Program-made: the position numbers and the translations under genes
The notes under the pieces: model-generated
What the model was told of the DNA's origin: nothing
The model's database searches: none
The model's input: the letters and a program-made list of their open reading frames with translations, nothing else
Source of the DNA: Elusimicrobia bacterium HGW-Elusimicrobia-1
GTDB taxonomy: Bacteria; Elusimicrobiota; Endomicrobiia; PHAN01
NCBI GenBank assembly: GCA_002841695.1
Contig: PHAN01000016.1
Coordinates: 4,024 to 68,023, forward strand
Reading direction: 5' to 3'
Length of the DNA stretch: 64,000 nt
In this document: one piece after another, positions 52 to 23,233 of the stretch
Layout: each line of letters starts with the position of its first letter
Numbering within the stretch: the first letter of the stretch is position 1

Positions 52-1509
52 ATGGACAGAAACCTCGTTGAAAAAGTCACAAAACAAGTTATCGCCGACT
101 ACAGCCGCAAGTCCTCGTCGCCGCGAAAGATTATGGCGGTTTTTATGGGCGGAGACCGTAATCTCGACGATGCGCTGTCGGCCGTTCGCGAAATAGCCCG
201 CGCGGGCAACGAAACCAAAATCCTGATAACCCGCTCCGCCGCCTCCGTGATAGGCGTTGACAGAATCAAAAATACTACCGGCGTTTCCGACGTGATAATC
301 GACGACGGCAAACAGAATTCCGTGGCGCTTTCGTCGTGGCCGGATGCTCTGGTTATAGCCACCCTCACTCTGAACGGTCTTTCCAAAATAGCCAATCTCA
401 TAACCGACACGCTTCACTCCAATATCGTCGTAGGATGTCTTGAAAGACAAGTGCCGGTTATCGCCGCGCGCGACGCGGTTTTCTGCTCCTGCCATCCGGA
501 GCCGTCTTCCGCGAGCGGCCTGGCCAGAAAAGTCGAGTCGATGGTTTACGATCTCAAAAATATGGGCGTAACGGTGACCACCGCCAAAAATCTCGCCCGC
601 GATACGTCCTCGGCGACGGGCGCCCCAATCAAAAAAATTGAAGTTACCGTCGGAACGGCGGGAAAAGTGTTTTCGTACACGCCGCCCGCGGCCGTTGGCC
701 CGGCCGATAATTGTCCTGCTTTTAAGGATGGCGCGGACTGCGCTTCCTGCGGTAAGTGCATTGAGAAAAAACCCGGTTCCGTCGGCGCGGTAATATCGGC
801 CGGCGCCGACCGCGTAAGCGCCAGTGCGGGTACGCTTGCCCCCGGAAAACTCGCCAATTACATCGACCATACTCTCTTGAAAGCCAACGCCACTCAGGAA
901 GAAATCGGCAAACTCTGCGAAGAAGCCGCCAAATATAAGTTCGTTTCCGTTTGCGTGAACCCCGCCTACGTGGCGATGTCCGCGCAGCTTTTGCGCGGCT
1001 CCGGCGTTAAGGTGTGCACGGTAATAGGATTTCCTCTGGGAGCCACAACGCCCACGGTAAAAGCCATCGAGGCCAGAGACGCCATAGCCAACGGAGCCGA
1101 CGAGATAGATATGGTCATAAACGTCGGAGCCCTTAAAAGCGGAAACCATCAGTTGGTTCTTGAAGATATAAAAGCGGTGCGCGAAGCGACGCGCGGCAAA
1201 ATACTCAAAGTCATTCTTGAAACCGCGTATCTCACGCGCGAAGAAAAAATCAAGGCCTGCGAATTATCCAAAGCGGCCGCCGCGGATTTTGTTAAAACTT
1301 CCACCGGCTTCGGCCCGTCGGGCGCGACCGCCGAGGATATAAAACTTATGCGCGACACCGTCGGGCCGTCGATGGGCGTAAAGGCCTCGGGCGGTATTCG
1401 TTCCACCGCCGACGCGACGGCAATGGTCGCCGCGGGCGCCACGCGCATAGGCGCCTCCGCCAGCGTGGCCATAGTGATGGGCAAAGACGCCGGCGCGGGA
1501 AAATATTAA
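52..1509 (+). CDS. deoC: Fusion protein: N-terminal amphipathic helix plus linker, RpiB/LacAB-like Rossmann domain, Cys-rich linker, deoxyribose-phosphate aldolase (DeoC) domain
   Basis: C-terminal ~220 aa carry class I DeoC hallmarks ([47 protein letters not shown]). N-terminal ~150 aa ([43 protein letters not shown]) resemble the RpiB/LacAB (or flavoprotein-like) fold but are degenerate. The linker contains [16 protein letters not shown]. Residues 4-16 ([13 protein letters not shown]) followed by SRKSSSPRK look like a BMC encapsulation peptide. ATG 52 is preceded by GGAGAAATC. Confidence 0.8.
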
Positions 1510-1513
1510 AAGC

Positions 1514-1598
1514 AGTGGCGAGTGGCTAGTGATTAGTGGATAGTAAAGTCAAGAAGTTTTTCTAGCCACTAGCCACTAATCACTAGTCACTAACCACC
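1514..1598. repeat. Inverted element built from tandem heptads (AGTGGNN x4.5 on the left arm, CTARYCA x5 on the right arm) between deoC-fusion stop and BMC-H start
   Basis: Read directly: agtggcg agtggct agtgatt agtggat agt ... ctagcca ctagcca ctaatca ctagtca ctaacca. The arms are roughly reverse-complementary. Related copies occur at 17542-17587, 34186-34219 and 34326-34362. Confidence 0.7.
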
Positions 1599-1613: not shown

Positions 1614-1895
1614 ATGTCGGAAATCAAAGAAGCGTTGGGTATGATTGAAACCAGAGGGCTCATCGGAATGATTGAGGCCTCTGATGCCATGGTCAAAGCC
1701 GCCAAAGTCCGTCTCGTCGGATATGAAAAGATCGGCGCCGGATTGGTCACCTCTATGGTCAGAGGAGAGGTCGGAGCCGTTCGCGCCGCCGTGGAAGCCG
1801 GAGCCGCCGCCGCCCAGAAAGTCGGCGAACTCGTAAGCGTTCACGTGATACCGCGTCCGCACGAAGACGTTGAAAAAATAATCCCCAACAAATAA
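1614..1895 (+). CDS. Bacterial microcompartment shell protein, BMC-H (PduA/EutM/CcmK family, Pfam00936)
   Basis: Near-canonical BMC-H sequence: [91 protein letters not shown] lies 8 nt upstream of ATG 1614. The ORF track start at 1599 is an in-frame alternative. Confidence 0.92.
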
Positions 1896-1971: not shown

Positions 1972-2286
1972 ATGGATAAAAACGACATAGTCGACGTCGT
2001 GGCGGCCGTTCTTTCGTCCGCCCCCGCCCGCTCTTCCGGCGGCGAGCGGCCCGTTACGCCGTTTGGCGAGGCGGCCTCGCGGACGTATAAGTCCGGTGTT
2101 TACGCGTCAGGGTATCTGAAGCCGTTTACGGCGCTCAAAAGCGGTCGGCCTTTTCTGAGCGAGTACGACGTAAAGACAATGCTGAGTTCCAATCCGCGCG
2201 AAATAACGGTTCCCAAAAACGCCATTATCAGTCCGCTTGCCGAAGATCTTATACAGGAGAAAAACGTAAAAATCAATTATGTATGA
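1972..2286 (+). CDS. Hypothetical 104-aa protein with N-terminal encapsulation-peptide-like helix (DIVDVVAAVLSS) plus low-complexity linker; translationally coupled to pilT
   Basis: ORF with an amphipathic N-terminal helix followed by a Pro/Ser/Gly linker (APARSSGGERP). Its stop overlaps the pilT start (ATGTATGA at 2279-2286). No family recognised. Confidence 0.45.
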   Translation: MDKNDIVDVVAAVLSSAPARSSGGERPVTPFGEAASRTYKSGVYASGYLKPFTALKSGRPFLSEYDVKTMLSSNPREITVPKNAIISPLAEDLIQEKNVKINYV

Positions 2287-3355
2287 CGTAAAAAAACTTC
2301 TTGGCGCGATGATCCGCAACAACATATCGGACATCCATCTTAAATCTGATTCCGCGCCCTTAGTAAGAGTCAACGGAGAGCTTGTCACCGCGTCCGAGGA
2401 AAAGATAACGGCTGAAACGATGAAAACAATCGTTGAATCGGTGCTTTTGCCCGATCAGGCCGAGAAGTTTCGCAGGGATTGCGACATAGATTTTGCATAC
2501 TCCGTCGAAGGTCTTTCGCGGTTCCGCGTCAATATGAGCATGGAAAGGGGTAATCCGTCCATTGTTCTTCGAGTTATTCCGACGGAAGTAAAAACCTTTG
2601 AGGAACTCAACCTCCCCGACGAAGCATTCAGAAAACTCGCCAACGAATCCCGCGGGCTCATACTGATAGCGGGAATAACCGGCTCCGGAAAAACAACCAC
2701 TCTCAACGCCATTATCAATCACATCAACGAAAATACGCGCGCGAAGATCGTTACCATAGAAGATCCTATCGAGTATTATCATTTCGACAAAAAATCGTCG
2801 ATCTCGCAGCGCGAAATCGGCCGCGACGCCAAATCGTTTGAGAGCGCGCTGAAATATTCTCTCAGACAGGACCCCGATATCATAGTGCTGGGCGAACTCA
2901 GAGATTCCGAGTCGATGAAAGCCGCCATACTGGCCGCCGAGACCGGGCATCTGGTGCTTTCCACCATCCACACCATAGATACTTCTCAGACGATAGACCG
3001 CATCATCAGTTCTTACCCTCCGCATCTTCAGTCGGGCGTATGCGCCCAACTCGCCTATGTGGTCAAGGGGATAGTGGCACAGCGTCTGGTGCCTTCCAAA
3101 GATTGCTCCGCGCAATACCCCATTTGCGAGATACTTATAGGCACGTCGCTTATAAAAAATATCATCGCGGAGAAAAAGCTCGGCGATATAGCCAAGGCGC
3201 TTGAACAGGGCTCTTTTTACGGTATGCGCACGTTCGACCAGGATATATACAAGCTTTTTACCGAAGGTAAGATTTCGTCGGAAACCGCGTTTGAAAACGC
3301 CACTAACGTAGACGATCTGTCTTTGCGGCTAAAGGGTATAGAGCGAACCTCATAA
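2279..3355 (+). CDS. pilT: PilT-family type IV pilus retraction (twitching motility) ATPase
   Basis: Walker A GITGSGKTT, Asp box, Walker B DIIVLGELRD and His box TIHT are all present. Length 358 aa. N-terminus matches PilT-type (ISDIHLKSDSAPLVRVNGEL). Confidence 0.85.
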   Translation: MYDVKKLLGAMIRNNISDIHLKSDSAPLVRVNGELVTASEEKITAETMKTIVESVLLPDQAEKFRRDCDIDFAYSVEGLSRFRVNMSMERGNPSIVLRVIPTEVKTFEELNLPDEAFRKLANESRGLILIAGITGSGKTTTLNAIINHINENTRAKIVTIEDPIEYYHFDKKSSISQREIGRDAKSFESALKYSLRQDPDIIVLGELRDSESMKAAILAAETGHLVLSTIHTIDTSQTIDRIISSYPPHLQSGVCAQLAYVVKGIVAQRLVPSKDCSAQYPICEILIGTSLIKNIIAEKKLGDIAKALEQGSFYGMRTFDQDIYKLFTEGKISSETAFENATNVDDLSLRLKGIERTS

Positions 3356-3409: not shown

Positions 3410-5275
3410 ATGCTCAAAAAATGGGAATTTATCAGGCAGCCGGCGGAAAAAGATTCATCGCGCTGGCGTCTAAAACTCAAAATCGCCGAGGATGACGTCG
3501 ACAAAATCCTGGGCGAGCTGCCGGGCAATAAGGGAAGGCCGTTTCTGGTCGAGGACGGCGTCTTTGATTTCGGCGCGTATTTTTACAATCTCACGCAAAA
3601 CGACCACGCGGCCATAGCCGAAATACTCAAAAAGAAGTCGCCCGACGGCAAATGCGGCGGTTTTAACGAAGAAACCGAGGACGTTTTCGCTTCTCTGGCC
3701 GCCAAAATCGACGAATCCGCCCGCCTATCGCCGGTTTCTCAGGAATCCGCCAATCGTCCCGCGCCTCCTGCCGCGCCGCCATCCGGCCCACGCAACGGTC
3801 ATCACAACGGTAATAACGTCCCTGCTTCGCAGGCGGGCGCGGATGCTGCGGTCTCGCCGCAGGAAACTTATTCCGGCGCATTTCTCGTGGAGGATATGCC
3901 GCTTAATCCGGAGTATATTTTCGAGCAGTTTGTCGTGGGTTCCAATAATCGCTTTACCCACGCCGCCGCGCTCGCCGTGGCCAAGGCGCCCGGTAAAACT
4001 TACAATCCTTTCTTCATACACGGCGGCGTCGGCCTGGGTAAAACCCATTTGATGCAGTCCATCGGGCATTACGTCAAAAAAAACTTTCCGGATTTGAAGG
4101 TCCTCTATGTCACCACGGAGAAGTTCGTAGGCGACGTCATCGACGCCATAAGCCACGGCGAAAACAACGCTCTGAGGAACTTTTATAAAACCATCGACGT
4201 GCTTCTGGTCGACGATATACAGTCGCTGTCGCAATCCGAATCCATGCAGGACGAATTCTTTCATATTTTCAACCTGTTGCATCAGAATAAAAAACAGATA
4301 GTCATAACCTGCGACCGCCCGCCGAAACTTCTTAATATTCTGGAAGATCGGCTTCGCTCCCGTTTCGAGTGGGGGCTTATTGCCGATATGAAATCTCCCA
4401 CACTGGAAACAAGGGTCGCGATACTTAAGAAAAAAGAAGAAGCCGAGCATCTGGAACTCGACGATAATATACTGCTTTACATCGCTTCCAAGTTGAAATC
4501 CAATATAAGAGAACTCGAAGGTTTCCTGAAAAGAATAACCGCGTATTCCACGCTGACTAAGCAGGAAATCAATATTGCCCTGATAAAAACGCTTATGGCG
4601 GAACTTCTGCCCGGCGAGGAGAATCCGGATATTACCATGGCCGCCGAACAGGCAGCCAAGTCGCCTGTGCCGCAAATGCCGCCGCAGACAATTCCGAGTC
4701 AAAAAATACCCGAACACGATTCGCCCGAGCCGGAGCGTCCGTCTATGGATTCGCTTAGCGAGGCGGACATCAAAATAGTCCCCAAAGGCGTCCAATTTTC
4801 GCCCTCGCCGGCGCACACGATACCGCAGCCGGTTCATCAGCAGCCGTCCGTTCACGCCGCCGCGCACGCGTCATTGGATCCGACACTGCGTCCGGTTGAT
4901 GTGGTGTTCTTTTTTCCGTCGGGGAAAGAGAATGAACTGGCGAAAATAAAAGACAAGTTCGCCGAGGTCATCAAAAAACACAAACTCAAATTTCAACTCG
5001 TTTCCGTATTTGACAAACCATACGAAAATAAGGGCAAGATAAATTACGCCATGTTTACCGAACTCTGCAAGACAAACAAGGTCGGCATCTCCGTGGTGCT
5101 TGCGCCCCCGCCGGATGCGGGCATTCGGGAAGAGGATTTTGTCAATATTCTGGGAGCGATGATGAGCGATGAAAAAATATCTCTTCAACTGGTTCCGTGG
5201 AACGAGATAAACAAGGACTACCGCTATCTCAATCTGGCGTTGGATATAACACTTTCCGGCGCCGACGGCAAGTGA
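3410..5275 (+). CDS. DnaA-like AAA+ protein: DnaA domain III (including the RFEWGL signature) with non-DnaA N-terminal region and a ~230-aa C-terminal extension replacing DNA-binding domain IV
   Basis: NPFFIHGGVGLGKTHLMQSIG (Walker A), VLLVDDIQ (Walker B), RSRFEWGLIADMKSP (DnaA box VII) and ITCDRPP match DnaA domain III. No HTH domain IV sequence is present in any frame. The tail contains a Pro-rich linker and a distinct ~120-aa domain (VVFFFPSGKENELAKIKDKF...). An alternative TTG start exists at 3362. Confidence 0.7.
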   Translation: MLKKWEFIRQPAEKDSSRWRLKLKIAEDDVDKILGELPGNKGRPFLVEDGVFDFGAYFYNLTQNDHAAIAEILKKKSPDGKCGGFNEETEDVFASLAAKIDESARLSPVSQESANRPAPPAAPPSGPRNGHHNGNNVPASQAGADAAVSPQETYSGAFLVEDMPLNPEYIFEQFVVGSNNRFTHAAALAVAKAPGKTYNPFFIHGGVGLGKTHLMQSIGHYVKKNFPDLKVLYVTTEKFVGDVIDAISHGENNALRNFYKTIDVLLVDDIQSLSQSESMQDEFFHIFNLLHQNKKQIVITCDRPPKLLNILEDRLRSRFEWGLIADMKSPTLETRVAILKKKEEAEHLELDDNILLYIASKLKSNIRELEGFLKRITAYSTLTKQEINIALIKTLMAELLPGEENPDITMAAEQAAKSPVPQMPPQTIPSQKIPEHDSPEPERPSMDSLSEADIKIVPKGVQFSPSPAHTIPQPVHQQPSVHAAAHASLDPTLRPVDVVFFFPSGKENELAKIKDKFAEVIKKHKLKFQLVSVFDKPYENKGKINYAMFTELCKTNKVGISVVLAPPPDAGIREEDFVNILGAMMSDEKISLQLVPWNEINKDYRYLNLALDITLSGADGK

Positions 5276-5285: not shown

Positions 5286-6941
5286 ATGAAAAAAACGGGA
5301 TTTTTGCACTCTCTGATTCTTTTTGCTTTCGCCGTGCTGTGGGTCGGCGGCGGTTTGTGGATTACGGTCTGCGCTACGCGTTCCTATGCGGCCGCGCGCG
5401 CCGTATCGGCGGCGAAGTCGGCAGTTTCTTCAGGGACGTCGCGCGGCATATATGAGCATTTCGCATCGGAGAAGACACTGGTCAAGATCGGACGCGTATC
5501 CGCCAAAACGGGCGCGATAGAGAAGCCCGTGACAAAGACCTCGCGTATGCCGGTGGAGTTTTTCTCCGCGGAGTTCGAGGCAGGGGGGGAATATTACAGA
5601 ATGTGGTATGCGGCGGCGTTTTATCTGGATTCGCTCAAGCATAAGATGACGCCGGTGGCAATCGGTTGGGTAGTGTGGCTGTTCGCGGGACTTTTTGCGG
5701 CGCACTGGCTCAACAGAAAACTTTTATTCGATCCATTGGATGCCCTCTCGTCGATCGAATCCTCGCCCGCCAGAATTCCCAAGGCCATCGAGGCCGCCGC
5801 AAGGGCGGTTTTCGACGCGCGATCCCATCTGGCGCTTCATTCGGTGCACTCTTCCGTGTTGCTGCAGGCCGCCAAATCCATATCTTCGCACGTGGACCTC
5901 AATCACGCCGTCTCGCGCATACTCGACATAGTTGTGGAGAAATTCCCCGACACTTCCTGCTCCGTGACGTTTCTCGACGATGACGGTTTCATAAGAATAA
6001 AAAACACCCGCGGGCTTTCCGCCGAGTTTATCAAAAAAATCAAGCTTCGCCGGGGAGAGGGTTTTGCGGGGGAATGCGTTGAAACCAAAAAAACCATAGT
6101 GGTACAGGATACCGATAAGACGTCGAATGCGGCCACCGATAAATTTGTCGCCGGTGAAAACATCAAATCGTTCGTCCACGTTCCCATAGTCGTCGAAAAT
6201 CGCGCCATCGGGACATTCAATATCAACTCGTACAAGAAGGACTATTTTACCCGCGACATTCTCAGCGTGGCCGCCACGCTCAGCGAATATCTGTCCGTGG
6301 CCGTTTCCAACGCCAAACTCTACGAACGTCTGCGAGATTTCAACCGGCGTCTGGAATCGGAAGTGTCCTACACCACCAGCGAATTGCTCAAGACCAACGC
6401 GAAACTGGTGCGTAAAATCAGAACGATGAAGAGCGCCATGGAAATCTTCGGCTATTTTGAATCCGAATCCCCGTCGACCGAAATATTGACGAAAGTATTT
6501 ACCAAAATCCGCGACGTTGTCGGCGCCGATTTTATAGCGTTTGTCACTTGCGACGCGGCTTGCGGACGGTTTAGGCCGCTTTTCAGGGTATCGGGTCTCG
6601 GCGATAACGAAACCGCTTTCGGCCGGACGGAATATGCGCCCGCCGAAGTCCCGCCCGCCGCCGAAGCTTTGGCGTCCGGCCGGCCCGTCATCAAAAATTC
6701 CCCGACGTCCGACGCTAAATGGAAGATAGTTCCGGAAGGCGTATTCATCAAAACGTCGGCGGTTTTTCCCGTTTTTGCCGGAGGAACCGCCGCGGGAGCC
6801 ATAATACTGGCAAATAAAATCGGCGAAGGTTTCGACGACGCCGACGCGGAATTCGCAGTTATGGCGGCTTCCCGTCTGGGCGTTTATATACACTGCGAGT
6901 ACCACTGTCACAAAAAAACGCCCGTTGCGGCGAAAAAATAA
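5286..6941 (+). CDS. Membrane-anchored tandem GAF-domain protein (no recognisable output domain)
   Basis: N-terminal TM helices (LILFAFAVLWVGGGLWITV, VVWLFAGLFAAHWL). The first GAF domain matches typical GAF sequence (...GEGFAGECVETKKTIVVQDTDK...IGTFNINS) and is followed by a second GAF-like region. Confidence 0.6.
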   Translation: MKKTGFLHSLILFAFAVLWVGGGLWITVCATRSYAAARAVSAAKSAVSSGTSRGIYEHFASEKTLVKIGRVSAKTGAIEKPVTKTSRMPVEFFSAEFEAGGEYYRMWYAAAFYLDSLKHKMTPVAIGWVVWLFAGLFAAHWLNRKLLFDPLDALSSIESSPARIPKAIEAAARAVFDARSHLALHSVHSSVLLQAAKSISSHVDLNHAVSRILDIVVEKFPDTSCSVTFLDDDGFIRIKNTRGLSAEFIKKIKLRRGEGFAGECVETKKTIVVQDTDKTSNAATDKFVAGENIKSFVHVPIVVENRAIGTFNINSYKKDYFTRDILSVAATLSEYLSVAVSNAKLYERLRDFNRRLESEVSYTTSELLKTNAKLVRKIRTMKSAMEIFGYFESESPSTEILTKVFTKIRDVVGADFIAFVTCDAACGRFRPLFRVSGLGDNETAFGRTEYAPAEVPPAAEALASGRPVIKNSPTSDAKWKIVPEGVFIKTSAVFPVFAGGTAAGAIILANKIGEGFDDADAEFAVMAASRLGVYIHCEYHCHKKTPVAAKK

Positions 6942-6999: not shown

Positions 7000-8178
7000 A
7001 TGCAAATCAGATTAGCCGACAGATTGTCGCGGCTCGGCACCGAAACAGCGTTTGAAGTCCTGGCCAAAGCGAAAGCGCTCGAGGCCAAGGGCAAGGAAAT
7101 GGTGCATCTTGAAATCGGCGAGCCGGATTTCGATACTCCTAAAAATATCCGCGACGCCGCCAAGAAAGCCATCGACGACGGATGGACGCATTACGGGCCG
7201 TCGGCCGGGCTTCCGGAACACCGCGCGGCGATAGCCGAATATATCTCAAAAACCCGCGGCATAAAAGTGCTCCCGGAGGAAGTGGTGGTTACACCCGGCG
7301 CCAAACCCATAATCTTCTACACTATGCTCACGGTGTTGAAACCCCGCGACGAGGTTATCTATCCTAACCCGGGTTTTCCGATATACGAGTCGATGATAAA
7401 ATTCGTCAGCGGCATACCCGTGCCCATTCCCCTGCGCGAAGAAAACGACTTTAACTTCGACATAAAAGAATTCAAAAAACTGGTTACGCCCAACACCAAG
7501 GTCATAATACTCAACTCGCCTCAGAACCCCACGGGCGGAGTTCTTCCCAGAAAAGTTCTCGAGGAGATAGCCGATATAGTTCTTCAGCGCGACGACATCG
7601 TCGTTCTTTCCGACGAGGTTTACTCCCGTATGCTCTACGACGGACAGGAACATTTTTCCATTGCGTCCATACCCGGAATGAAGGACCGCACGATAATAAT
7701 CGACGGATATTCCAAAACCTACGCGATGACGGGCTGGCGCGCGGGTTACGGCGTTATGAACAAGGAATACGCCGGCTGGATGACTAAACTTATGACCAAC
7801 TCCAATTCCTGCACGGCTTCTTTCACGCAGATGGCCTGCATAGAGGCGTTGCGCGGCGACCAGAGCGAGGTCGACAAAATGGTTGCGGAGTTTGCCCGCC
7901 GCAGGGATGTTATGGTCGAAGGATTGAATAAAATCCCCGGCGTGAAATGCAAAAAACCCAAGGGAGCGTTTTACGTGTTCCCGAACTTCAGCGAATTCGG
8001 AATGAAGTCCAAAGAAATGGAAGAGTTCCTGCTGGAAGAGGCCGGCGTGGCCGCGCTTGCGGGAACATCCTTCGGAGATTACGGCGAGGGATACATACGT
8101 TTCTCTTACGCCAATTCCGTGGAGAACATCAAAAAGGCGCTTTCTAAAATAGAAACGGCCCTGAAGCGTCTCCGCTGA
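7000..8178 (+). CDS. Class I/II pyridoxal-phosphate aminotransferase (aspartate aminotransferase-like)
   Basis: AAT-like N-terminus (LSRLGTETAFEVLAKAKALEAKGKEMVHLEIGEPDFDTP). PLP-lysine region YSKTYAMTGWRAGY. GGAGG upstream of ATG 7000. Confidence 0.8.
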   Translation: MQIRLADRLSRLGTETAFEVLAKAKALEAKGKEMVHLEIGEPDFDTPKNIRDAAKKAIDDGWTHYGPSAGLPEHRAAIAEYISKTRGIKVLPEEVVVTPGAKPIIFYTMLTVLKPRDEVIYPNPGFPIYESMIKFVSGIPVPIPLREENDFNFDIKEFKKLVTPNTKVIILNSPQNPTGGVLPRKVLEEIADIVLQRDDIVVLSDEVYSRMLYDGQEHFSIASIPGMKDRTIIIDGYSKTYAMTGWRAGYGVMNKEYAGWMTKLMTNSNSCTASFTQMACIEALRGDQSEVDKMVAEFARRRDVMVEGLNKIPGVKCKKPKGAFYVFPNFSEFGMKSKEMEEFLLEEAGVAALAGTSFGDYGEGYIRFSYANSVENIKKALSKIETALKRLR

Positions 8179-8400
8179 TAAAAAGCATTTGACATCTCGT
8201 CGATAATTTCGTAGAATGTTCGGCTTTCCCCGATAGCCGCCGGGTTGTAGTTCTTCCGGCGGTCCGACGAAAATATCCACGCTTTGCGGATGGGCGTCGC
8301 GGCGCCGCTTCAAATCGCTTTCCCGACACAGTCGTTCCACAATATCAAAAGGAGGTCGGAAACCCTTCCAAAGAAAAAGACGGGGCTTCCGGTAATAACT

Positions 8401-10701
8401 ATGAGTCAGAAAGAAATCGTGAGCGCATCGGCGCTGGCGGCAAAAACATCGTATCCATCCTCGGAAATCGCATCGGCCGAACGGCTATTCGCGGCATATC
8501 GTTCGATAGTCGTAATGCTGTTCAACTTCGTGCAATCGGGCCATCCGGGCGGGTCGATATCGATGGGAAGGCCGCTGCTTAACATTACCCTCAATAAAAA
8601 CACCAAACTCGATATAACGGACCTCGACCGCCCCGACTCCGACATTATAGGTATGGCCGCCGGTCATAAGGCGCTGGGGCTGTATTCATATCTGGGGCTG
8701 CTCTTTGAGATAGTCAAAATAAAAGACCCCAAACTTTTTGAGTCGATAAAACGCAAAATGCGGTTCGAGGACCTTCTGGGCTTCCGCAAAAATCCCGCCA
8801 CCGAACTTCCTCTGATGAAGAAATTCTCTTCCAAGCGGCTCGACGGACATCCCACTCCCGAAACACCGGGCGTAGTGGTGGCTACGGGAGCGTCGGGCGT
8901 GGGTTTCGGCGCCCTGGGCGGATATGCTTTTGCCAAAAAAGAGTATTACGACGCGCCTCCGACGATAAACATTATCGAGGGAGAGGGGGGAATGACTCCC
9001 GGCCGCGTGCACGAGAATCTCGCGCATTTCTGGGCGCTGGACCTTTGGAATCTTATAATTCACGTCGACTGGAACAACGCATCCATCGACGCCGACAATG
9101 TGTGCGCCACGGACAAGTGCCGCGGACAATATGTCAACTGGTCGCCTCACACGCTGGGAGCATTGCACGGCCTCAACGTAGTTTACGTCGAAGACGGACG
9201 CGACCCTTCAAAAGTCCGCGCCGCGCAGGATCACGTATTCGGCGAATTTATGAGCCGGAAAGAATCGCCCAATATGATAGTGTACCGCACGGTGAAGGGC
9301 GAGGGATACTGGGAAGGAAGAAAGTCCCACGGCGCCGGATTCAAGACGGACGCGCCGGAGTATTTCGCCGCGCAGAAAACTTTCGAGGACGCTTTCAACG
9401 TAAAAATGATACCCGCCCCCGAAAAACTGACTCTTGAAACAAGAGAAGAGTATCTTTATAAAAATCTGCTCGTCGTCGAACAGGCGTTGAAATCCGACAC
9501 GAAACTCGTCGACTATGTATTCAACGCGCTGATGTCGTCCCGCGACGCCCTCAATAAAGCCGGCCGCAGGCCCGCGGCAAAAAGCGCCGATATATCGACG
9601 GTTAAGGCGCCGTCCGGCAAGTTCTCGGAAACGAATCCTCCCGCCGAAATCATCCATAAACCCGGTTCCGCGGTTACACTCAGGGAATCGCTCGGCAATA
9701 CGCTTCATTACTTCAACGCTTACACGGGCGGCGGTCTTTACGGCTTCGCGGCCGACCTCGTGGGTTCCACAAGCTTAAATCTTATGTGCGAGGACTTTCA
9801 GAAAAAGGGATTCCTCACCTGCGAAAATCCCTACGCCAAAATAATTCCCACGGGAATTTGCGAAGACGGCGGCTCGTCGCTGATATCGGGCATTTCGGCC
9901 ACCGGACATTATGTGGGAGTGGGAAGTTCGTACGCCACTTTCATGAGCCCCATGGGATTTACGGCCGCGCGGCTTTTTGCCATCGCCTACCAGGCGAAGC
10001 ACGGCGCCGATATGGCTCCGATGATACTGATTAACGCTCACGCGGGTCTTAAAACCGGAGAGGACGGACCGACTCACGCCTGTCCGCAGACCCTTTCTCT
10101 GTGGAAGGGATTTGATAAATTAAACGTGAAAGTTGTCACGCTTACTCCCTGGGATCCCAACGAAATCTGGCCGCTTATGATAGCGGCTCTCAAACTTCGT
10201 CCCGCCGTCATAATTCCTTACGTGACGCGGCCGGCCGAGACGGTTGTCGACAGGGAAAAAATAGGACTTCCTCCCGCCGCCGTCGCCGCCGCCGACGGCA
10301 TATACCGCGCGCGCACCGCTAAAAAATCTTCGAAAACGGTGATATATCAGGGCGCCGAAGTCGGCACGGAACTGCCGGGAGTGCTTGAAGCGCTGGACAA
10401 GGATGATGTTGACGTCAACATTCTCTACGTCGCGAGTTCCGAACTTTTCTCCAATCTTTCCGCCGATAAACGGGAAAAAATACTGCCGGTCGAGTTCAAG
10501 AAAAACGCTATGGCCGTCACCGGTTTTACGATTGATACAATGTACGAATACCTGCTTTCAGAAGAGGGCAGGGCAGCGTCGCTGCATCCTTTCAAGAAAG
10601 GCGTTTTCCTTGGTTCGGGACCGGGTTCGGAAGTGCTCAAACAGGCCGGACTCGACGCCGCTGCGCAAGTCAAAGCCATAAAAGAATTCGTCGGTAAGTG
10701 A
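8401..10701 (+). CDS. Divergent transketolase-family thiamine-diphosphate enzyme (766 aa)
   Basis: Collinear with transketolase: SGHPGGSIS (TK GHPG motif), GEGGMTPGRVHENLAHFWALDLWNLIIHVDWNNASID (TK GDGxxMEG...DNxISID). Carries extra insertions and a longer C-terminus than canonical Tkt. Confidence 0.6.
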   Translation: MSQKEIVSASALAAKTSYPSSEIASAERLFAAYRSIVVMLFNFVQSGHPGGSISMGRPLLNITLNKNTKLDITDLDRPDSDIIGMAAGHKALGLYSYLGLLFEIVKIKDPKLFESIKRKMRFEDLLGFRKNPATELPLMKKFSSKRLDGHPTPETPGVVVATGASGVGFGALGGYAFAKKEYYDAPPTINIIEGEGGMTPGRVHENLAHFWALDLWNLIIHVDWNNASIDADNVCATDKCRGQYVNWSPHTLGALHGLNVVYVEDGRDPSKVRAAQDHVFGEFMSRKESPNMIVYRTVKGEGYWEGRKSHGAGFKTDAPEYFAAQKTFEDAFNVKMIPAPEKLTLETREEYLYKNLLVVEQALKSDTKLVDYVFNALMSSRDALNKAGRRPAAKSADISTVKAPSGKFSETNPPAEIIHKPGSAVTLRESLGNTLHYFNAYTGGGLYGFAADLVGSTSLNLMCEDFQKKGFLTCENPYAKIIPTGICEDGGSSLISGISATGHYVGVGSSYATFMSPMGFTAARLFAIAYQAKHGADMAPMILINAHAGLKTGEDGPTHACPQTLSLWKGFDKLNVKVVTLTPWDPNEIWPLMIAALKLRPAVIIPYVTRPAETVVDREKIGLPPAAVAAADGIYRARTAKKSSKTVIYQGAEVGTELPGVLEALDKDDVDVNILYVASSELFSNLSADKREKILPVEFKKNAMAVTGFTIDTMYEYLLSEEGRAASLHPFKKGVFLGSGPGSEVLKQAGLDAAAQVKAIKEFVGK

Positions 10702-10800
10702 CTATGTCATTCTGAGGAGTCACCTTGCGGGTGACGACGAAGAATCTTGTCTTAATAGATTCTTCGCTTCTCTCAGAATGACGTGATTCGGACAATAATT
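10702..10800. repeat. Nested-palindrome intergenic repeat (MITE/REP-like), related to the copy at 27676-27900
   Basis: gtcattctgagg...ctcagaatgac (11-nt IR), gtcacc/ggtgac and gaagaatct/agattcttc sub-palindromes. A 27-nt block agattcttcgcNNCNctcagaatgacg is shared with 27805-27831. Confidence 0.6.
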
Positions 10801-12510
10801 ATGCAGATAAGCGAACTGATTCGCGCGGCATCCGGAAGCGTCAAGCCGGATTTATGCCTGAAAAACGGCCGGGTCGTCAACGTGCTTTCGGGCGAAATCG
10901 AACGCGCCGATATTCTGGTGCACAAGGGCTATATAGCGGCCGTCGGCGCGCATTTGCCCCGCGCCCGACATTCCATAGATATGGGCGGATCGTTTGTCGC
11001 GCCCGGTTTTATCGACGGTCACGTGCATATAGAGTCGTCGATGATGTCCGTATCCGAGTTCGCCCGCGCCGTGTCGTCGCGCGGTGTGACATCGGTAATC
11101 ACCGACGCCCACGAAATCGCCAACGTTCTTGGCATCGACGGAATAAAGTATATGCTTGAATCGGCAAAATATCAGCCGCTTAATGTATTTTTTATGCTTC
11201 CGTCGTGCGTTCCCGCCACCAAAATGGAAACGGCGGGCGCGCGTTTGTCCGGCTTCGACCTTTATCCGTTTCTTAAAGAAAAGTGGGTGGTCGGCCTGGG
11301 CGAAGTAATGAATTTTCCCGGCGTCATAATGGCCGACGAGGATTTGCTCGACAAAATGAAGATTGCCGCCGGCAAAAGAATCGACGGGCATTCTCCCGGA
11401 CTTTCCGGAGCGGGTCTGGCCGCCTATATAGCATCCGGCATAACGTCGGACCACGAATCCACCACCCTTGCGGAGGCGCGCGAAAAACTTCGCAGAGGAA
11501 TGTACGTAATGGTTCGCGAAGGCACTTCCGAGAAGAATCTCGCATCCCTGATACCTCTTGTCAACGAAAAAAATTACTCGCGCTTTTTCTTTGTTTCCGA
11601 CGACAGACATCCGCACGACCTGGTGAAAGAGGGTTCCATAGATCATCTTGTAAGAAAAGCCGTGTCTCTGGGTCTGGCCCCCCTGACGGCCATAAGAATG
11701 GCCACGATAAACACTGCGGAATACTTCCGTCTTCCGCGCATCGGCGCGCTGGCTCCGGGTTATCAGGCCGACATCGCCGTGTTCGACAGTATGCGCGCAA
11801 TTCGTCCGCGAATGGTTATGCGGCGCGGCGCGGTAGTCGCCAAAGACGGGAAGTTCGTTGCGCGCAAAGTCCGCATCGCGGCCCGTCTCAGAGGTTCGGT
11901 AAATGTGCGATGGCTCGACGCAAAAGATTTCGCGGTGCGCGCCGAGGGAAAGCGCATTAAAGTAATCGAGGTCGTTCCCCATCAAATAGTAACCCGCAAA
12001 AAAATAATGCGCGCAAAGGTCGAAAAAGGCCTGGCCGTTTCCGATACGGCGAACGACGCGCTTAAAATGGTCGTGGTGGAACGGCATCAGGCGTCGGGCG
12101 CAATCGGCAAAGGATTTGTGAAGGGCTTCGGTCTTAAAAGGGGCGCGATAGCCCAGTCCGTCGCGCACGACTCGCATAATATCATAGCGGTCGGCGCCGA
12201 CGACCGGTCCATTTATTCGGCCTGCGTCGACATAGTAAAAATGGGCGGCGGTTTAAGCGTTGCCGACGGCGACAACATTCTTGCGCGTATGCCTCTGCCG
12301 ATAGCCGGACTTATGACCGACGAGCCGCTTGAGTCGGTAGTGACGTCTCTGGAAGAACTGCTTGCCGCGGCGCGAAAACTCGGCTGCGGATTGCCCGATC
12401 CGTTTATGACGCTGTCTTTTATGGCGCTGCCGGTAATACCGGAACTGAAACTGACGGATAAAGGTCTTGTCGACGTAAATAAAATGAAAATTACGGAGCT
12501 TTTCGAATGA
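10801..12510 (+). CDS. ade: Adenine deaminase
   Basis: GFIDGHVHIESSMM metal-binding motif and overall collinearity with Ade (~570 aa). GTG 10783 is an alternative start. Confidence 0.85.
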   Translation: MQISELIRAASGSVKPDLCLKNGRVVNVLSGEIERADILVHKGYIAAVGAHLPRARHSIDMGGSFVAPGFIDGHVHIESSMMSVSEFARAVSSRGVTSVITDAHEIANVLGIDGIKYMLESAKYQPLNVFFMLPSCVPATKMETAGARLSGFDLYPFLKEKWVVGLGEVMNFPGVIMADEDLLDKMKIAAGKRIDGHSPGLSGAGLAAYIASGITSDHESTTLAEAREKLRRGMYVMVREGTSEKNLASLIPLVNEKNYSRFFFVSDDRHPHDLVKEGSIDHLVRKAVSLGLAPLTAIRMATINTAEYFRLPRIGALAPGYQADIAVFDSMRAIRPRMVMRRGAVVAKDGKFVARKVRIAARLRGSVNVRWLDAKDFAVRAEGKRIKVIEVVPHQIVTRKKIMRAKVEKGLAVSDTANDALKMVVVERHQASGAIGKGFVKGFGLKRGAIAQSVAHDSHNIIAVGADDRSIYSACVDIVKMGGGLSVADGDNILARMPLPIAGLMTDEPLESVVTSLEELLAAARKLGCGLPDPFMTLSFMALPVIPELKLTDKGLVDVNKMKITELFE

Positions 12511-13715
12511 CGCGCAAACTCGTCGCGCTTGTCATACTCGATTCATTCGGCGCGGGAGCCCTTCCCGACGCCGCTGAATACGGCGATGCGGGCGCCGACA
12601 CGCTCGGTCACATCGCCGGACAAACCAAGAATTTTAATCTGCCCAATCTGGCGCGGCTGGGACTTTATGAATTGATAGCTCCTTCGGCCCGGCCGGCTTT
12701 TCCGCCCGGAAAAATCACCGGCTGCTACGGCAAAATGGCCGAGGCCTCGGACGGTAAAGACACGCCCATAGGCCACTGGGAGATAACGGGACTTATCACC
12801 GAAAAACCGCTGCCCACTTATCCCGACGGCTTTCCCAAAGAATTAATCGAGCGCTATGAAAAAATCATAGGCGTCAAAACCCTCGGCAATTACGCCGCCT
12901 CCGGCACGGAGATTTTAAAACAACTCGGCGACGAGCATTACAAAACCGGATATCCGATAGTATACACTTCGGCCGACAGCGTTTTTCAGGTGGCCGCGCA
13001 CGAGGATCCCAAAATTTTCGGGCTCAAAAAACTTTACGAAATATGCGAAGCCGTCAGAAAAATGCTGGCGCCTCCGCATAACGTGGGCCGCGTTATCGCG
13101 CGGCCGTTTATCGGCGAGCCGGGGGCGTTTGCGCGCACGTCGAACCGTCACGATTACGCCCTCGACCCCGCCGGCGAGACGCTTCTTGACAAACTCCGGA
13201 AAGCCGGCGTGAGAGTGTCGGCCGTCGGAAAAATATACGACATATTCAACGGTAAAGGCATCGACGAAACCGTTCGCACGCGCGACAACCGCGACGGAAT
13301 GGCGCGAACGCTTGAAGCCGTCCGCAAAGCCGTCGACGGGCCGTCGGGAACCAAAACTTTCGTGTTCACGAATCTGGTCGATTTCGATATGCTCTGGGGA
13401 CATCGCAGAAATGTCGCGGCTTATTACGAGGGGCTTAAGGAGTTCGACGATTTTCTGCCGCGGCTGGAAGATGCTCTCGGCGATGAAGGCGTTCTTCTGA
13501 TAGCGGCCGACCACGGCTGCGACCCCGCCTACGCCGCTCATACCGACCACACCCGCGAACACGTGCCCGTGCTTGTCTCGGGACAAGGCGTTAAGAAAGG
13601 AATAAATCTGGGCGTCCGCAAAACCTTCGCCGACGCCGGGCAGACAATATCCGAATTGTTCGGGGCGGAGCGAACCGCCGCGGGAGTTTCATTCGCCAAG
13701 GAAATAGTTCTTTGA
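12507..13715 (+). CDS. deoB: Phosphopentomutase
   Basis: N-terminus VILDSFGAG, followed by GHWEITG and AADHGCDP motifs typical of DeoB. Its start overlaps the ade stop. Confidence 0.9.
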   Translation: MTRKLVALVILDSFGAGALPDAAEYGDAGADTLGHIAGQTKNFNLPNLARLGLYELIAPSARPAFPPGKITGCYGKMAEASDGKDTPIGHWEITGLITEKPLPTYPDGFPKELIERYEKIIGVKTLGNYAASGTEILKQLGDEHYKTGYPIVYTSADSVFQVAAHEDPKIFGLKKLYEICEAVRKMLAPPHNVGRVIARPFIGEPGAFARTSNRHDYALDPAGETLLDKLRKAGVRVSAVGKIYDIFNGKGIDETVRTRDNRDGMARTLEAVRKAVDGPSGTKTFVFTNLVDFDMLWGHRRNVAAYYEGLKEFDDFLPRLEDALGDEGVLLIAADHGCDPAYAAHTDHTREHVPVLVSGQGVKKGINLGVRKTFADAGQTISELFGAERTAAGVSFAKEIVL

Positions 13716-14746: not shown

Positions 14747-14776
14747 CAAAAACCTCGCGGCATAAGGAAGGTTAAC

Positions 14777-15379: not shown

Positions 15380-15395
15380 AGGGAGACGTAGTAAG

Positions 15396-16214: not shown

Positions 16215-16229
16215 ACGCGGGAGATATAT

Positions 16230-17540: not shown

Positions 17541-17541
17541 A

Positions 17542-17587
17542 AGTGAATAGTGGTTAGTCTTTTACTATTCACTAACCACTAACCACT
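17542..17587. repeat. Heptad-repeat hairpin element (CACTAAC x2.5 with inverted partner) immediately 5' of recJ
   Basis: agtgaatagtggttagtc tttt actattcactaaccactaaccact. Same module family as 1514-1598. Confidence 0.65.
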
Positions 17588-17603
17588 TGTCCTACACACT
17601 ACA

Positions 17604-19826: not shown

Positions 19827-19859
19827 GCGTCCGGAGAACTACATAAGGAGACACAATCA

Positions 19860-21113: not shown

Positions 21114-21252
21114 AAAATTGAGTCAATTGAAAAATACTCCTTTTTCCCGTATGTCATTTCCGAATGTTGTTATCGGGAATCCATACTGCGGAGGAAACCT
21201 TGAATTTCCGCTTTAGCGGGAATGACGTGACAAGGGTTTTTCAACGGTCTCA
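21114..21252. repeat. Dispersed intergenic repeat (MITE-like), sharing both terminal blocks with 27676-27900
   Basis: 5' block caattgaaaaaRtaYcc (21124-21140 vs 27681-27697). 3' block gaatgacNNNacaaNNNgggtttttcaacggYctca (21218-21252 vs 27844-27879). Confidence 0.65.
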
Positions 21253-23174: not shown

Positions 23175-23233
23175 AAGCCGATCGCCCGGTAAATATCGCC
23201 GCCGCGCATATCGCGGCGCAATGGAGAAAAGTT

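What the first reader, a model, noticed from the sequence alone, without database searches (positions are those of the whole stretch)
1972..3355. Small encapsulation-peptide-bearing protein translationally coupled (ATGTATGA overlap) to a PilT-type ATPase next to the BMC shell gene
The 104-aa ORF has an N-terminal helix-plus-linker like BMC cargo proteins but no recognisable catalytic domain. Its stop codon overlaps the start of a full-length PilT retraction ATPase.

No other pilus genes (pilA, pilB, pilC, pilMNOPQ) are in the window. A PilT-family hexameric ATPase embedded between BMC genes and a DnaA-like AAA+ protein is an unexpected context. It could indicate DNA-uptake coupling, or a non-pilus role for this ATPase.
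Basis: partly seen in the sequence, partly recalled or inferred. Interest (0 to 1): 0.55.

Follow-up and report, generated by a model that had tools for sequence, protein, structure and literature searches.

The report
Microcompartment tail gene abutting DNA-foraging PilT module
The small gene is the last, shell-targeted component of a deoxyribose-degrading bacterial microcompartment locus, and the PilT motor after it belongs to a separate conserved module that travels with DNA/nucleoside-catabolism genes in Elusimicrobia, which points to pilus-driven DNA foraging, not a small-protein/PilT partnership.

Summary
A 104-aa ORF (1972-2286) overlaps a full-length PilT gene (2279-3355) by ATGTATGA, just after a BMC-H shell gene. 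No other pilus gene lies in the window.

The interpretation needs re-cutting. The small protein belongs to a family of at least 497 unannotated Elusimicrobia proteins. Each has an N-terminal helix, a variable linker and a conserved 45-aa C-terminal domain. That domain matches the C-terminus of the Firmicutes Eut protein family TIGR02536. In every shell-bearing locus examined it is the gene after DERA and BMC-H in SPU-type (deoxyribose-phosphate aldolase) microcompartment loci.

It occurs without PilT in two ways: as the terminal gene, or followed by a CheY-like receiver. Conversely, PilT-DnaA-like AAA+-GAF occurs directly after DERA in a locus with no shell genes and no small protein. So two modules abut here, and the 8-nt overlap is clade-specific operon compaction.

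The next about 30 kb of the window is a nucleic-acid and nucleoside catabolism island. It holds secreted nucleases, a RecJ-exonuclease fusion, nucleoside phosphorylases, phosphopentomutase, deaminases and phosphate transporters.

Best reading: a DNA-as-food super-operon in which PilT (type IV pilus retraction) helps acquire DNA for the DERA pathway. The PilT mechanism is inferred, not shown.

The parts
52..1509 (+). DERA (deoxyribose-phosphate aldolase) fusion, 485 aa. It has an N-terminal EP-like helix ([17 protein letters not shown]), a flavoprotein-like domain (res 41-138), a CxxxxxxxxCxxCxxC motif (res 221-236, nt 712-759) and a DeoC domain (res 267-475).
   Evidence: TIGR00126 deoC 3.4e-88, PF01791 and PF02441. 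There is a weak match of res 98-185 to TIGR02536. The Cys motif was located.
1515..1597 (+). Long, near-perfect RNA hairpin in the DERA/BMC-H intergenic region, with no T-tract after it.
   Evidence: MFE -43.8 kcal/mol, z = -7.2, and 0 of 200 shuffles fold as well. Its function was not determined.
1614..1895 (+). BMC-H shell protein (93 aa), with GGAGG 8 nt upstream of the ATG at 1614.
   Evidence: PF00936 4e-29 and EutM-like NF012018 1.8e-40. It is 86-99% identical in L001, L002 and L007. It is the only BMC-domain gene in the window.
1972..2286 (+). Small EP-type protein (104 aa). Helix res 3-15 (nt 1978-2016), variable linker res 16-58, and a conserved C-terminal domain res 59-103 with the nearly invariant core NAIISPLA.
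   Evidence: family and conservation; structure model; C-terminus matches TIGR02536 positions 162-204; 41 of 43 members do so.
2279..3355 (+). PilT-family hexameric ATPase (358 aa). Walker A is GITGSGKTT, Walker B is DPDIIVLGELRD and the His box is TGHLVLSTIHT. The start overlaps the small ORF's stop by 8 nt.
3410..5275 (+). DnaA-like AAA+ paralog (621 aa from the ATG at 3410). It has a novel N-domain (about 85 aa), a DnaA AAA+ core, a P/Q-rich linker and a novel C-domain (about 128 aa). There is no DnaA domain IV.
   Evidence: PF00308 1.8e-67 and no Bac_DnaA_C hit. The N- and C-domains are conserved even in homologs that lack the AAA+ core. The N-domain has only 22 cluster representatives among 1.8 billion proteins.
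5286..6941 (+). Membrane-anchored double-GAF sensor protein (551 aa). It lacks the kinase domains that its homologs carry in other clades.
   Evidence: PF13185/PF01590. Homologs in L008, L015, L016, L017, L019, L021-L023 are GAF-HisKA-HATPase_c kinases.
7000..8178 (+). Class I/II aminotransferase, syntenic after the GAF gene in L007 and L023 as well.
8284..37070 (+). Co-directional nucleic-acid and nucleoside catabolism island. In order: transketolase, adenine deaminase, phosphopentomutase-like enzyme, PHO4 + PhoU_div, two PNP_UDP_1 phosphorylases, pyrimidine-nucleoside phosphorylase, RecJ+RNase_T exonuclease fusion, DHH phosphoesterase, PfkB kinase, adenosine deaminase, Na/Pi cotransporter, ATP-cone uridine kinase, HD phosphohydrolase, secreted PLD-type nuclease, and two secreted ComEC-type metallo-beta-lactamases.
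   Evidence: Pfam scans. Signal peptides and the DVGQGD motif were read from the N-termini. The same TKT / adenine deaminase / phosphopentomutase run follows the module in L024.

Best explanation
The finding sits on the seam between two conserved modules of an Elusimicrobia 'DNA-as-food' gene cluster.

Module 1 is the tail of an SPU-type (DERA) microcompartment locus. Here it is reduced to a satellite-like DERA / BMC-H / small-gene unit. The small protein is a shell-targeted accessory component. Its N-terminal helix works as an encapsulation peptide. Its 45-aa C-terminal domain is shared with the Eut-locus family TIGR02536, and is most likely a protein-binding module for shell or cargo.

Module 2 is PilT / DnaA-like AAA+ / GAF sensor. 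It follows DERA in several Elusimicrobia lineages whether or not shell genes and the small gene are present.

Both modules are packed into one co-directional, probably co-transcribed unit with nuclease, nucleoside-phosphorylase, phosphopentomutase and phosphate-transport genes. The most likely mechanism runs as follows:
1. PilT powers type IV pilus retraction, which brings extracellular DNA to the cell.
2. Secreted and cytoplasmic nucleases and phosphorylases convert the DNA to deoxyribose-5-phosphate.
3. DERA splits that into glyceraldehyde-3-phosphate and acetaldehyde, inside or at the shell.
4. The GAF sensor and the DnaA-like ATPase regulate or assist the process.

Shown: gene identities, family conservation, synteny, and the double dissociation of the small gene and PilT. 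Inferred: encapsulation, co-transcription, the pilus/DNA-uptake role of PilT, and any role of the DnaA-like protein.
For: Small protein is a microcompartment component:
- At least 497 homologs, all 72-130 aa, nearly all from Elusimicrobia.
- Conserved helix, variable linker and conserved C-domain.
- It follows DERA and BMC-H in every shell-bearing locus examined (window, L001, L007-L009, L011-L019, L021-L023; L002/L006 and L010 are cut off before DERA).
- The full loci match SPU content: TIM, PTAC, AldDh, RpiB, DERA, BMC-H, BMC-T and three BMC-P (PMC11585597).
- 41 of 43 members match the TIGR02536 C-terminus.
- A published computational atlas predicts a TIGR02536/EutL shell complex (PMC13181095).

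Module independence:
- Small protein without PilT: L009-L014, L018.
- A CheY-like receiver in the PilT slot: L015, L016, L019.
- PilT-DnaA-like-GAF directly after a DERA with no EP, no shell gene and no small gene: L024.

Linkage is old and widespread:
- PilTs with this context span the whole neighbour-joining tree of the 118 closest PilT homologs.
- One of them (P0136) was picked without prior knowledge of its context.

Operon packing:
- Gaps of -14 to +32 nt at the junction in 13 loci.
- No terminator-like site on the + strand in the intergenic gaps between BMC-H and the aminotransferase; the four + strand sites reported in that span all lie inside coding sequence.

DNA-catabolism context:
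- in the window.
- 5'-nucleotidase upstream and ComM-like helicase downstream in L008, L017, L021, L022.
- A PilZ protein in L024.
- The SPU microcompartment is proposed to use DNA degradation products (PMC8217296, PMC11585597).
- Competence genes are conserved in Elusimicrobia (PMC8809381).
Against: - No pilin, PilB, PilC, PilMNOPQ or ComEC/ComEA gene is in the window or in any fetched locus, so the pilus link rests on PilT family membership alone.
- I could not check whether these genomes carry a type IV pilus system or a second PilT.
- A CheY-like receiver occupies the PilT slot in one clade. That could mean the slot is regulatory, not mechanical.
- The window's clade shows no AldDh, BMC-P, PTAC or RpiB within the 64-kb window or within 10 kb upstream. 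Whether a closed shell is made here is therefore unknown.
- A crude hydrophobic-moment test did not set the N-terminal helix apart from shuffles.
- Conserved synteny does not prove function.
Confidence: 0.5

Rival explanations
1. PilT-DnaA-like AAA+-GAF is a self-contained, non-pilus machine. For example, it could be a cytoplasmic apparatus that receives, threads or processes imported single-stranded DNA for degradation. The DnaA-derived AAA+, which has no duplex-binding domain IV, would coat or translocate ssDNA, and PilT would act as a hexameric motor.
For: - PilT and the DnaA-like gene are adjacent or nearly so in 10 loci.
- The DnaA-like protein carries two novel, lineage-restricted domains: 22 cluster representatives worldwide, with no Pfam or PDB match.
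- No pilus gene is nearby.
- A RecJ+RNase_T exonuclease fusion is in the island.
- A ComM-like helicase is downstream in four loci.
Against: - PilT is canonical in length, motifs and score, and closest to pilus-retraction PilTs with solved structures.
- In one clade the DnaA-like/GAF pair goes with a CheY-like receiver instead of PilT. In L016 and L019 the AAA+ core itself is missing while the N- and C-domains remain. So neither ATPase is obligatory.
- There is no direct evidence of DNA binding.
Confidence: 0.15
2. The small EP protein and PilT are functional partners, and PilT acts on the microcompartment itself (assembly, positioning, cargo loading or disassembly), recruited through the small protein.
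For: - The 8-nt overlap implies coupled translation in the window, L001 and L002.
- The two genes are adjacent in nine loci.
- The small protein has a second conserved stretch in the 'linker' (K-S/W-G...Y..P-Y/F-T-S/A-L) in the window clade and the receiver clade. This could be a docking motif.
Against: - Double dissociation. Many loci have the small protein without PilT, and PilT keeps its DnaA-like/GAF partners with no small protein or shell.
- The overlap is replaced by +2 to +32 nt gaps in other PilT-linked clades, and PilT overlaps DERA instead in L024.
- The linker motif is absent from the PilT-linked proteins P0087 and P0071.
Confidence: 0.08
3. There is no functional link. This is the organism's housekeeping pilT, sitting next to the DERA locus and kept there by descent. 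DnaA-like/GAF is an unrelated regulatory pair.
For: - pilT is commonly unlinked from other pil genes (my own knowledge).
- All loci come from one phylum, except L007, whose record is titled Ignavibacteria, so shared ancestry could explain much of the synteny.
- Overlapping starts and stops are common between unrelated operon neighbours.
Against: - Adjacency survives PilT divergence to about 50% identity, while flanking genes, shell content and even the presence of the microcompartment change.
- The same DERA-PilT-DnaA-like-GAF-transketolase-adenine deaminase-phosphopentomutase order is kept in the window and in L024.
- Intergenic gaps are operon-like throughout.
Confidence: 0.2

Closest known systems
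SPU (sugar-phosphate utilising) bacterial microcompartment with DERA as signature enzyme (Sutter et al. 2021, PMC8217296; Commun Biol 2024, PMC11585597)
   Same: Relatives (L008, L015-L019, L021-L023) carry the published SPU set: TIM, PTAC, AldDh, RpiB, DERA with an N-terminal extension, BMC-H, BMC-T and a BMC-P triplet. The proposed substrate is deoxyribose-5-phosphate from DNA breakdown. The window has the DERA and one BMC-H.
   Different: The window's clade keeps only DERA (fused to a flavoprotein-like domain), one BMC-H and the small gene. By the catalog's definition that makes it a satellite-type locus. The small EP protein, PilT, the DnaA-like protein and the GAF sensor are not mentioned in the parts of those papers I searched and read.
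Encapsulation-peptide cargo proteins such as PduP and PduD (architecture as summarised in PMC11585597)
   Same: A short terminal helix, a poorly conserved linker, then a folded domain, all encoded inside a microcompartment locus. The helix sequence resembles those on the DERA and AldDh of the same loci.
   Different: The 'cargo' is only a 45-aa domain with no recognisable enzyme fold. Encapsulation is untested.
TIGR02536 family ethanolamine-utilisation protein (Firmicutes EUT loci)
   Same: The C-terminal 43 residues are homologous (E 7e-8; 41 of 43 family members). Both are encoded in microcompartment loci. A computational atlas predicts that the Listeria member binds the shell trimer EutL (PMC13181095).
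   Different: TIGR02536 proteins are about 207 aa with a flavoprotein-like body. Here only the tail is present (32 bits against a 152.6 cutoff). In the window's clade a flavoprotein-like domain sits on the DERA instead.
PilT, the type IVa pilus retraction ATPase (e.g. PDB 5fl3, 6ojx, 2gsz, 3jvu)
   Same: Full-length match above the family cutoff, with intact Walker A, Walker B and His-box motifs and the same size.
   Different: The genomic context differs: downstream of a DERA/microcompartment locus and upstream of a DnaA-like AAA+ and a GAF sensor, with no pilus genes nearby. Activity and partners are unknown.
'Nutritional competence', meaning the use of competence/pilus gene homologs to consume DNA as a nutrient in E. 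coli (Finkel and Kolter; Palchevskiy and Finkel; cited from my own knowledge, not re-read here)
   Same: The concept is the same: DNA-uptake machinery serving catabolism, not recombination.
   Different: Here the link is a physical gene cluster that joins a pilus motor to the whole deoxyribose pathway and a microcompartment. No experiment exists.
DnaA / Hda AAA+ proteins
   Same: The AAA+ core matches PF00308 strongly (227 bits).
   Different: There is no DNA-binding domain IV. The protein has novel N- and C-terminal domains joined by proline-rich linkers. Some orthologs lack the AAA+ core altogether.

Membership tests
Encapsulation-peptide (EP) bearing microcompartment protein | Short terminal alpha-helix of about 15-20 residues | tested here: met
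   AlphaFold2 predicts helix 3-15. The segment is conserved across 43 aligned homologs.
Encapsulation-peptide (EP) bearing microcompartment protein | Amphipathic character of the helix | tested here: inconclusive
   The hydrophobic moment is 0.26, and 36% of shuffles reach it. The same crude test also fails on EPs recalled from Salmonella PduP and PduD.
Encapsulation-peptide (EP) bearing microcompartment protein | Poorly conserved flexible linker between helix and folded domain | tested here: met
   The linker varies in length (about 10-45 residues) and sequence. pLDDT is below 50 for residues 21-33.
Encapsulation-peptide (EP) bearing microcompartment protein | Encoded within a microcompartment locus | tested here: met
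   It follows DERA and BMC-H in every shell-bearing locus examined.
Encapsulation-peptide (EP) bearing microcompartment protein | Helix is sufficient to target a protein into the shell | not testable with these tools
   This needs reporter fusions or shell purification.
TIGR02536 ethanolamine-utilisation protein family | Whole-protein score above the curated cutoff (152.6 bits), about 207 aa with a flavoprotein-like body | tested here: not met
   32.4 bits. Only residues 59-101 align, to model positions 162-204. The protein shares a domain but is not a member.
PilT/PilU type IVa pilus ATPase (TIGR01420) | Whole-protein score above the curated cutoff | tested here: met
   415.5 bits against 319.1, aligned over model positions 2-342 of 343.
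PilT/PilU type IVa pilus ATPase (TIGR01420) | Intact Walker A, Walker B with catalytic Glu, and His box | tested here: met
   GITGSGKTT, DPDIIVLGELRD and TGHLVLSTIHT align to Thermus PilT.
PilT/PilU type IVa pilus ATPase (TIGR01420) | Works with a type IV pilus machine (PilB, PilC, pilins) in the same genome | not tested
   None was found within the window.
SPU microcompartment main locus | DERA (PF01791) signature enzyme with an N-terminal extension | tested here: met
   TIGR00126 3.4e-88. The N-terminal extension is 260 aa and begins with a helix-like segment.
SPU microcompartment main locus | Aldehyde dehydrogenase and at least one BMC-P (normally a triplet) in the locus | tested here: not met
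   tblastn with L008 AldDh, BMC-P, BMC-T, RpiB, TIM and PduL finds none in the window, L001, L003, L005 or L007. All are present in L008, L015-L019 and L021-L022; L023 is cut at its upstream end, before AldDh. The window therefore holds a satellite-type fragment.
DnaA replication initiator | C-terminal DNA-binding domain IV (Bac_DnaA_C) | tested here: not met
   No hit even at E <= 1. TIGR00362 aligns only model positions 99-347 of 437.

The most novel reading that the evidence does not exclude
PilT, the DnaA-derived AAA+ protein and the GAF sensor together form a previously unrecognised, Elusimicrobia-restricted DNA-acquisition and processing system dedicated to eating DNA. A replication-initiator AAA+ that lost its duplex-binding domain handles incoming single-stranded DNA, or couples its arrival to pathway activation. 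The whole system is hard-wired genetically to the deoxyribose-degrading microcompartment. The small EP protein would be an unrecognised universal accessory subunit of Elusimicrobia SPU shells.
Probability: 0.15. Interest if true: 0.8.

Novelty: new variant of a known kind. Interest (0 to 1): 0.55.

Why it matters
SPU microcompartments are among the most common microcompartment types, yet their physiological substrate source is still only inferred to be 'DNA degradation products'.

A conserved physical link between the DERA locus, a pilus-retraction motor, secreted nucleases and the complete nucleoside-to-deoxyribose-phosphate route gives that hypothesis a concrete, testable form. It also suggests that some uncultured Elusimicrobia forage on extracellular DNA.

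The work flags two uncharacterised protein families:
- A 45-aa domain shared between SPU and EUT loci. It is carried here on an encapsulation-peptide mini-protein with at least 497 homologs.
- A rare DnaA-derived AAA+ protein with two novel domains.

Both are tractable targets for structural and interaction studies.

Tried and rejected
1. A hydrophobic-moment test of the N-terminal helix was uninformative, even for reference EPs.
3. Pfam scans on 43 family members gave no consistent family.
4. I considered that the extra conserved linker motif marks the PilT-linked forms. I rejected this because P0087 and P0071 lack it yet are PilT-linked, while the receiver-linked forms have it.
5. I considered that the DnaA-like gene and the all-plus-strand gene order mark the replication origin. 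The GC skew shows no switch and the protein lacks domain IV, so I dropped the idea.
6. A metagenome scan with PilT peptide patterns returned only one partial, unrelated locus, L020.
7. Single-sequence AlphaFold2 of the DnaA-like protein gave pLDDT 41 and was unusable. Homolog sequences taken from fetched loci could not be submitted, under the tool's submission rule (seen).
8. A profile of the DnaA-like C-domain against the PDB gave no hit.
9. Literature searches found no paper that links microcompartments with PilT.
Full report
**Observation**

The window comes from Elusimicrobia bacterium HGW-Elusimicrobia-1, because the 104-aa protein is 100% identical to its CVU77_07670.
- A 104-aa ORF lies at 1972-2286. 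Its TGA lies inside the string ATGTATGA (2279-2286), which also holds the ATG of a 358-aa ORF at 2279-3355.
- The 358-aa protein is a bona fide PilT-family ATPase. It scores 415.5 bits on TIGR01420 against a cutoff of 319.1 and 161 bits on PF00437.
- Its best solved relatives are pilus-retraction PilTs from Thermus, Geobacter, Aquifex and Pseudomonas, and its Walker A, Walker B and His-box motifs are intact.
- Upstream are a BMC-H shell gene (1614-1895) and a 485-aa DERA (deoxyribose-phosphate aldolase). The DERA is fused to an N-terminal helix, a flavoprotein-like domain and a four-cysteine motif.
- Downstream are a DnaA-like AAA+ protein without domain IV (3410-5275) and a membrane-anchored double-GAF protein (5286-6941).
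- Pfam scans of most of the larger ORFs and a six-frame search for the prepilin motif found no other pilus gene in the 64 kb.

**The small protein is real and belongs to the microcompartment locus**

- A single-sequence search found seven relatives at 53-100% identity.
- A profile of 13 sequences found at least 497 proteins. The 120 listed are 56-130 aa long, none has a functional name (those that carry a name are 'hypothetical protein'), and every organism named is Elusimicrobia.
- Alignments show a conserved N-terminal segment (MDKNDIVDVVAAVLSS here, MLTKGAIEDLIAEHL in others). A linker that varies in length and sequence follows. The C-terminal domain of about 45 residues is conserved and carries a nearly invariant NAIISPLA core.
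- AlphaFold2 on 43 sequences gives helix 3-15, disorder in 16-60, and a small beta-alpha-beta-beta-alpha-beta domain at pLDDT about 86.
- No Pfam family matches. No solved structure matches by sequence or by Foldseek.
- 41 of 43 members match the last 43 positions of NCBIfam TIGR02536. This is an uncharacterised protein family of Firmicutes ethanolamine-utilisation loci. A computational interactome paper predicts that the Listeria member binds the shell trimer EutL (PMC13181095).

In every shell-bearing locus I examined, the small gene directly follows DERA and a BMC-H gene. In full loci the order is:
TIM - PTAC - BMC-H - BMC-P - AldDh - BMC-T - RpiB - BMC-P - BMC-P - DERA - (about 100-aa unknown) - BMC-H - small.

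That is the published content of SPU-type microcompartments, whose signature enzyme is DERA and whose proposed substrate comes from DNA degradation (PMC8217296, PMC11585597).

The helix / linker / domain layout and the locus position fit an encapsulation-peptide protein. A crude amphipathicity test was inconclusive, and encapsulation itself is untested.

**PilT belongs to a different module**

Four downstream arrangements exist.

| Arrangement | Gene order after the small gene (or after DERA) | Loci |
|---|---|---|
| a | PilT - (proline-rich unknown) - DnaA-like - GAF histidine kinase; about 375-aa unknown - ComM-like helicase follow except in L023 (receiver - aminotransferase there) | L008, L017, L021, L022, L023 |
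| b | The window's clade: a reduced DERA(fusion) - BMC-H - small unit, then PilT - DnaA-like - GAF (no kinase) - aminotransferase - transketolase | window, L001, L002/L006, L007 |
| c | A CheY-like receiver in place of PilT, then the DnaA-like protein or a version lacking the AAA+ core, then a GAF-GAF kinase | L015, L016, L019 |
| d | Nothing related; the small gene ends the locus | L009-L014, L018 |

Locus L024 shows the converse. Its PilT is 57% identical, and I chose it without knowing its context. Its order is:
TIM - PTAC - PilZ - RpiB - TPR - unknown - DERA (no extension) - PilT (overlapping DERA by 14 nt) - DnaA-like - GAF - transketolase - adenine deaminase - phosphopentomutase.
It has no shell gene and no small gene within 10 kb.

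So the small gene and PilT dissociate in both directions. PilT-DnaA-like-GAF tracks DERA and nucleoside catabolism, not the shell.

PilTs with this context are spread across the whole neighbour-joining tree of the 118 closest PilT homologs. That argues the linkage is old and common in this orthogroup.

The ATGTATGA overlap is found only in the window, L001 and L002. Elsewhere the junction is +2 to +32 nt. Overlaps of 4 nt are common among neighbouring genes in the same window.

**Surroundings**

Everything from 52 to about 37 kb is on the plus strand and tightly spaced. No terminator-like site was found on the + strand in the intergenic gaps between BMC-H and the aminotransferase; the four + strand sites reported in that span all lie inside coding sequence. 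The best promoter-like site sits before the transketolase, at 8189-8217.

From 8.3 to 37 kb the genes encode the following:
- transketolase, adenine deaminase and a phosphopentomutase-type enzyme
- a phosphate transporter with a PhoU-like partner, and a Na/Pi cotransporter
- two purine/uridine-type nucleoside phosphorylases and a pyrimidine-nucleoside phosphorylase
- a RecJ (DHH-DHHA1-OB) protein fused to an RNase T-type exonuclease, and a second DHH phosphoesterase
- a PfkB kinase, adenosine deaminase and an ATP-cone uridine kinase
- an HD phosphohydrolase
- a PLD-type nuclease with a signal peptide
- two secreted metallo-beta-lactamases with the ComEC-like DVGQGD motif

This is a complete route from DNA to deoxyribose-5-phosphate, which is the DERA substrate. 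Related loci add a 5'-nucleotidase upstream and a ComM-like helicase downstream. Competence genes are reported as conserved across Elusimicrobia (PMC8809381).

**Mechanism**

I commit to the following model.
1. The cluster is a DNA-as-food super-operon.
2. The small protein is a shell-targeted accessory subunit of the DERA microcompartment. Its helix acts as an encapsulation peptide, and its C-domain is a protein-binding module shared with EUT loci.
3. PilT is the type IV pilus retraction motor. It is co-expressed so that pili capture extracellular DNA.
4. The GAF sensor senses a nucleotide-type ligand and controls the system. It is a histidine kinase with a receiver in other clades.
5. The DnaA-like ATPase assists or regulates in an unknown way.

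Gene identities, conservation and synteny are shown. Encapsulation, co-transcription, the pilus role and all roles of the DnaA-like and GAF proteins are inferred.

My confidence in each part:

| Claim | Confidence |
|---|---|
| The small protein is a microcompartment component, not a PilT partner | about 0.8 |
| The PilT module is tied to DERA and nucleoside catabolism | about 0.8 |
| PilT acts through pilus-mediated DNA capture | about 0.45 |

The rivals are a non-pilus PilT/DnaA-like machine (0.15), pure inherited synteny (0.2), and a small-protein/PilT partnership acting on the microcompartment (0.08).

**The DnaA-like protein**

- It consists of a novel N-domain of about 85 aa, the DnaA AAA+ core, a proline-rich linker and a novel C-domain of about 128 aa.
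- The N- and C-domains persist in orthologs that have lost the AAA+ core.
- A paralogous C-domain sits on the proline-rich proteins next to PilT in L008 and L017.
- A second gene encoding an N-domain protein lies next to PilT in L023.
- The N-domain has only 22 cluster representatives among 1.8 billion proteins.
- No structure or family match was obtained.

**Open points**

- The window's clade has one BMC-H and no BMC-P, AldDh, PTAC or RpiB within reach. By the catalog's definition this is a satellite-type locus. I could not check whether a main locus lies elsewhere in the genome.
- I could not check for pilus genes or a second PilT elsewhere in the genome.

**Verdict**

The thing itself is a new variant of known kinds: an SPU microcompartment locus plus pilus-type DNA acquisition. 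It includes two uncharacterised protein families. Interest is moderate, at 0.55.

Noticed in passing
window 1515-1597: A near-perfect 19-bp-plus hairpin built from repeated CACTAGCCACTAATCACTAG-like units lies between DERA and BMC-H. Its MFE is -43.8 kcal/mol with z = -7.2, and no T-tract follows. It could be a processing or stability element that sets the shell-to-enzyme ratio. I did not check whether it is conserved in relatives.
   Followed up: partly
window 8284-37070: A large co-directional nucleic-acid and nucleoside catabolism island. It holds transketolase, adenine and adenosine deaminases, phosphopentomutase, three nucleoside phosphorylases, phosphate transporters, kinases and an HD hydrolase. 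Together these form a full route from DNA to deoxyribose-5-phosphate.
   Followed up: yes
window 17604-19826: An unusual single polypeptide that combines RecJ (DHH, DHHA1, OB) with an inserted RNase T/DnaQ-type 3'-5' exonuclease domain. It is potentially a two-ended ssDNA degrader.
   Followed up: no
window 32695-34185 and 35225-37070: A PLD-type nuclease with a signal peptide and a FlgD-Ig-like C-terminus. Next to it are two secreted or lipoprotein metallo-beta-lactamases that carry the ComEC-type DVGQGD motif. These are candidate extracellular DNases.
   Followed up: partly
window 52-831 (DERA N-terminal 260 aa): Only the window's clade fuses a flavoprotein-like domain (PF02441, weakly TIGR02536-like) and a CxxxxxxxxCxxCxxC motif to DERA. 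The small protein carries the TIGR02536 C-terminal domain. So the two halves of the Firmicutes Eut protein are split over two EP-tagged genes here.
   Followed up: partly
window 3410-5275; L016 10741-11706; L019 10734-11768; L023 5399-6130; L008 11428-12306; L017 11378-12382: The DnaA-like protein's novel N- and C-domains form a small family of their own. Some orthologs lack the AAA+ core entirely. Proline-rich paralogs that carry only one of the domains sit beside PilT.
   Followed up: partly
window 5286-6941 versus L008 13977-15380 and L015 12706-15195: The GAF protein of the window's clade has lost the HisKA/HATPase_c kinase domains that are present in other clades, which also encode CheY-like receivers. 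The signalling output must differ here.
   Followed up: no
L008 16474-18003; L017 17199-18725; L021 17381-18913; L022 17743-19296: A ComM/YifB-type Mg-chelatase-like helicase, a natural-transformation factor in other bacteria, lies two genes after the GAF kinase in four PilT-linked loci.
   Followed up: no
L024 7444-7818: A PilZ-domain protein is inserted among TIM, PTAC and RpiB in the shell-less DERA-PilT locus. L015 has a GAF-GGDEF protein upstream. Both hint at c-di-GMP control.
   Followed up: no
small protein residues 38-58 (window 2083-2145): A second conserved stretch lies inside the 'linker' (K-S/W-G..Y...P-Y/F-T-S/A-L-...-R/K-x-F). It is shared by the window clade and the receiver-linked clade, but it is absent from the short forms and from some PilT-linked forms. 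It remains unexplained.
   Followed up: partly
L007 (record titled Ignavibacteria bacterium BA1A30.2019.Bin.46): This contig carries the window-type cluster, with 68-90% protein identity to the Elusimicrobia window. That suggests mis-binning or horizontal transfer.
   Followed up: no
window 8189-8217: The best sigma-70-like promoter match in the first 8.5 kb (11 of 12 positions) lies just upstream of the transketolase gene. This suggests a second transcription start inside the island.
   Followed up: no
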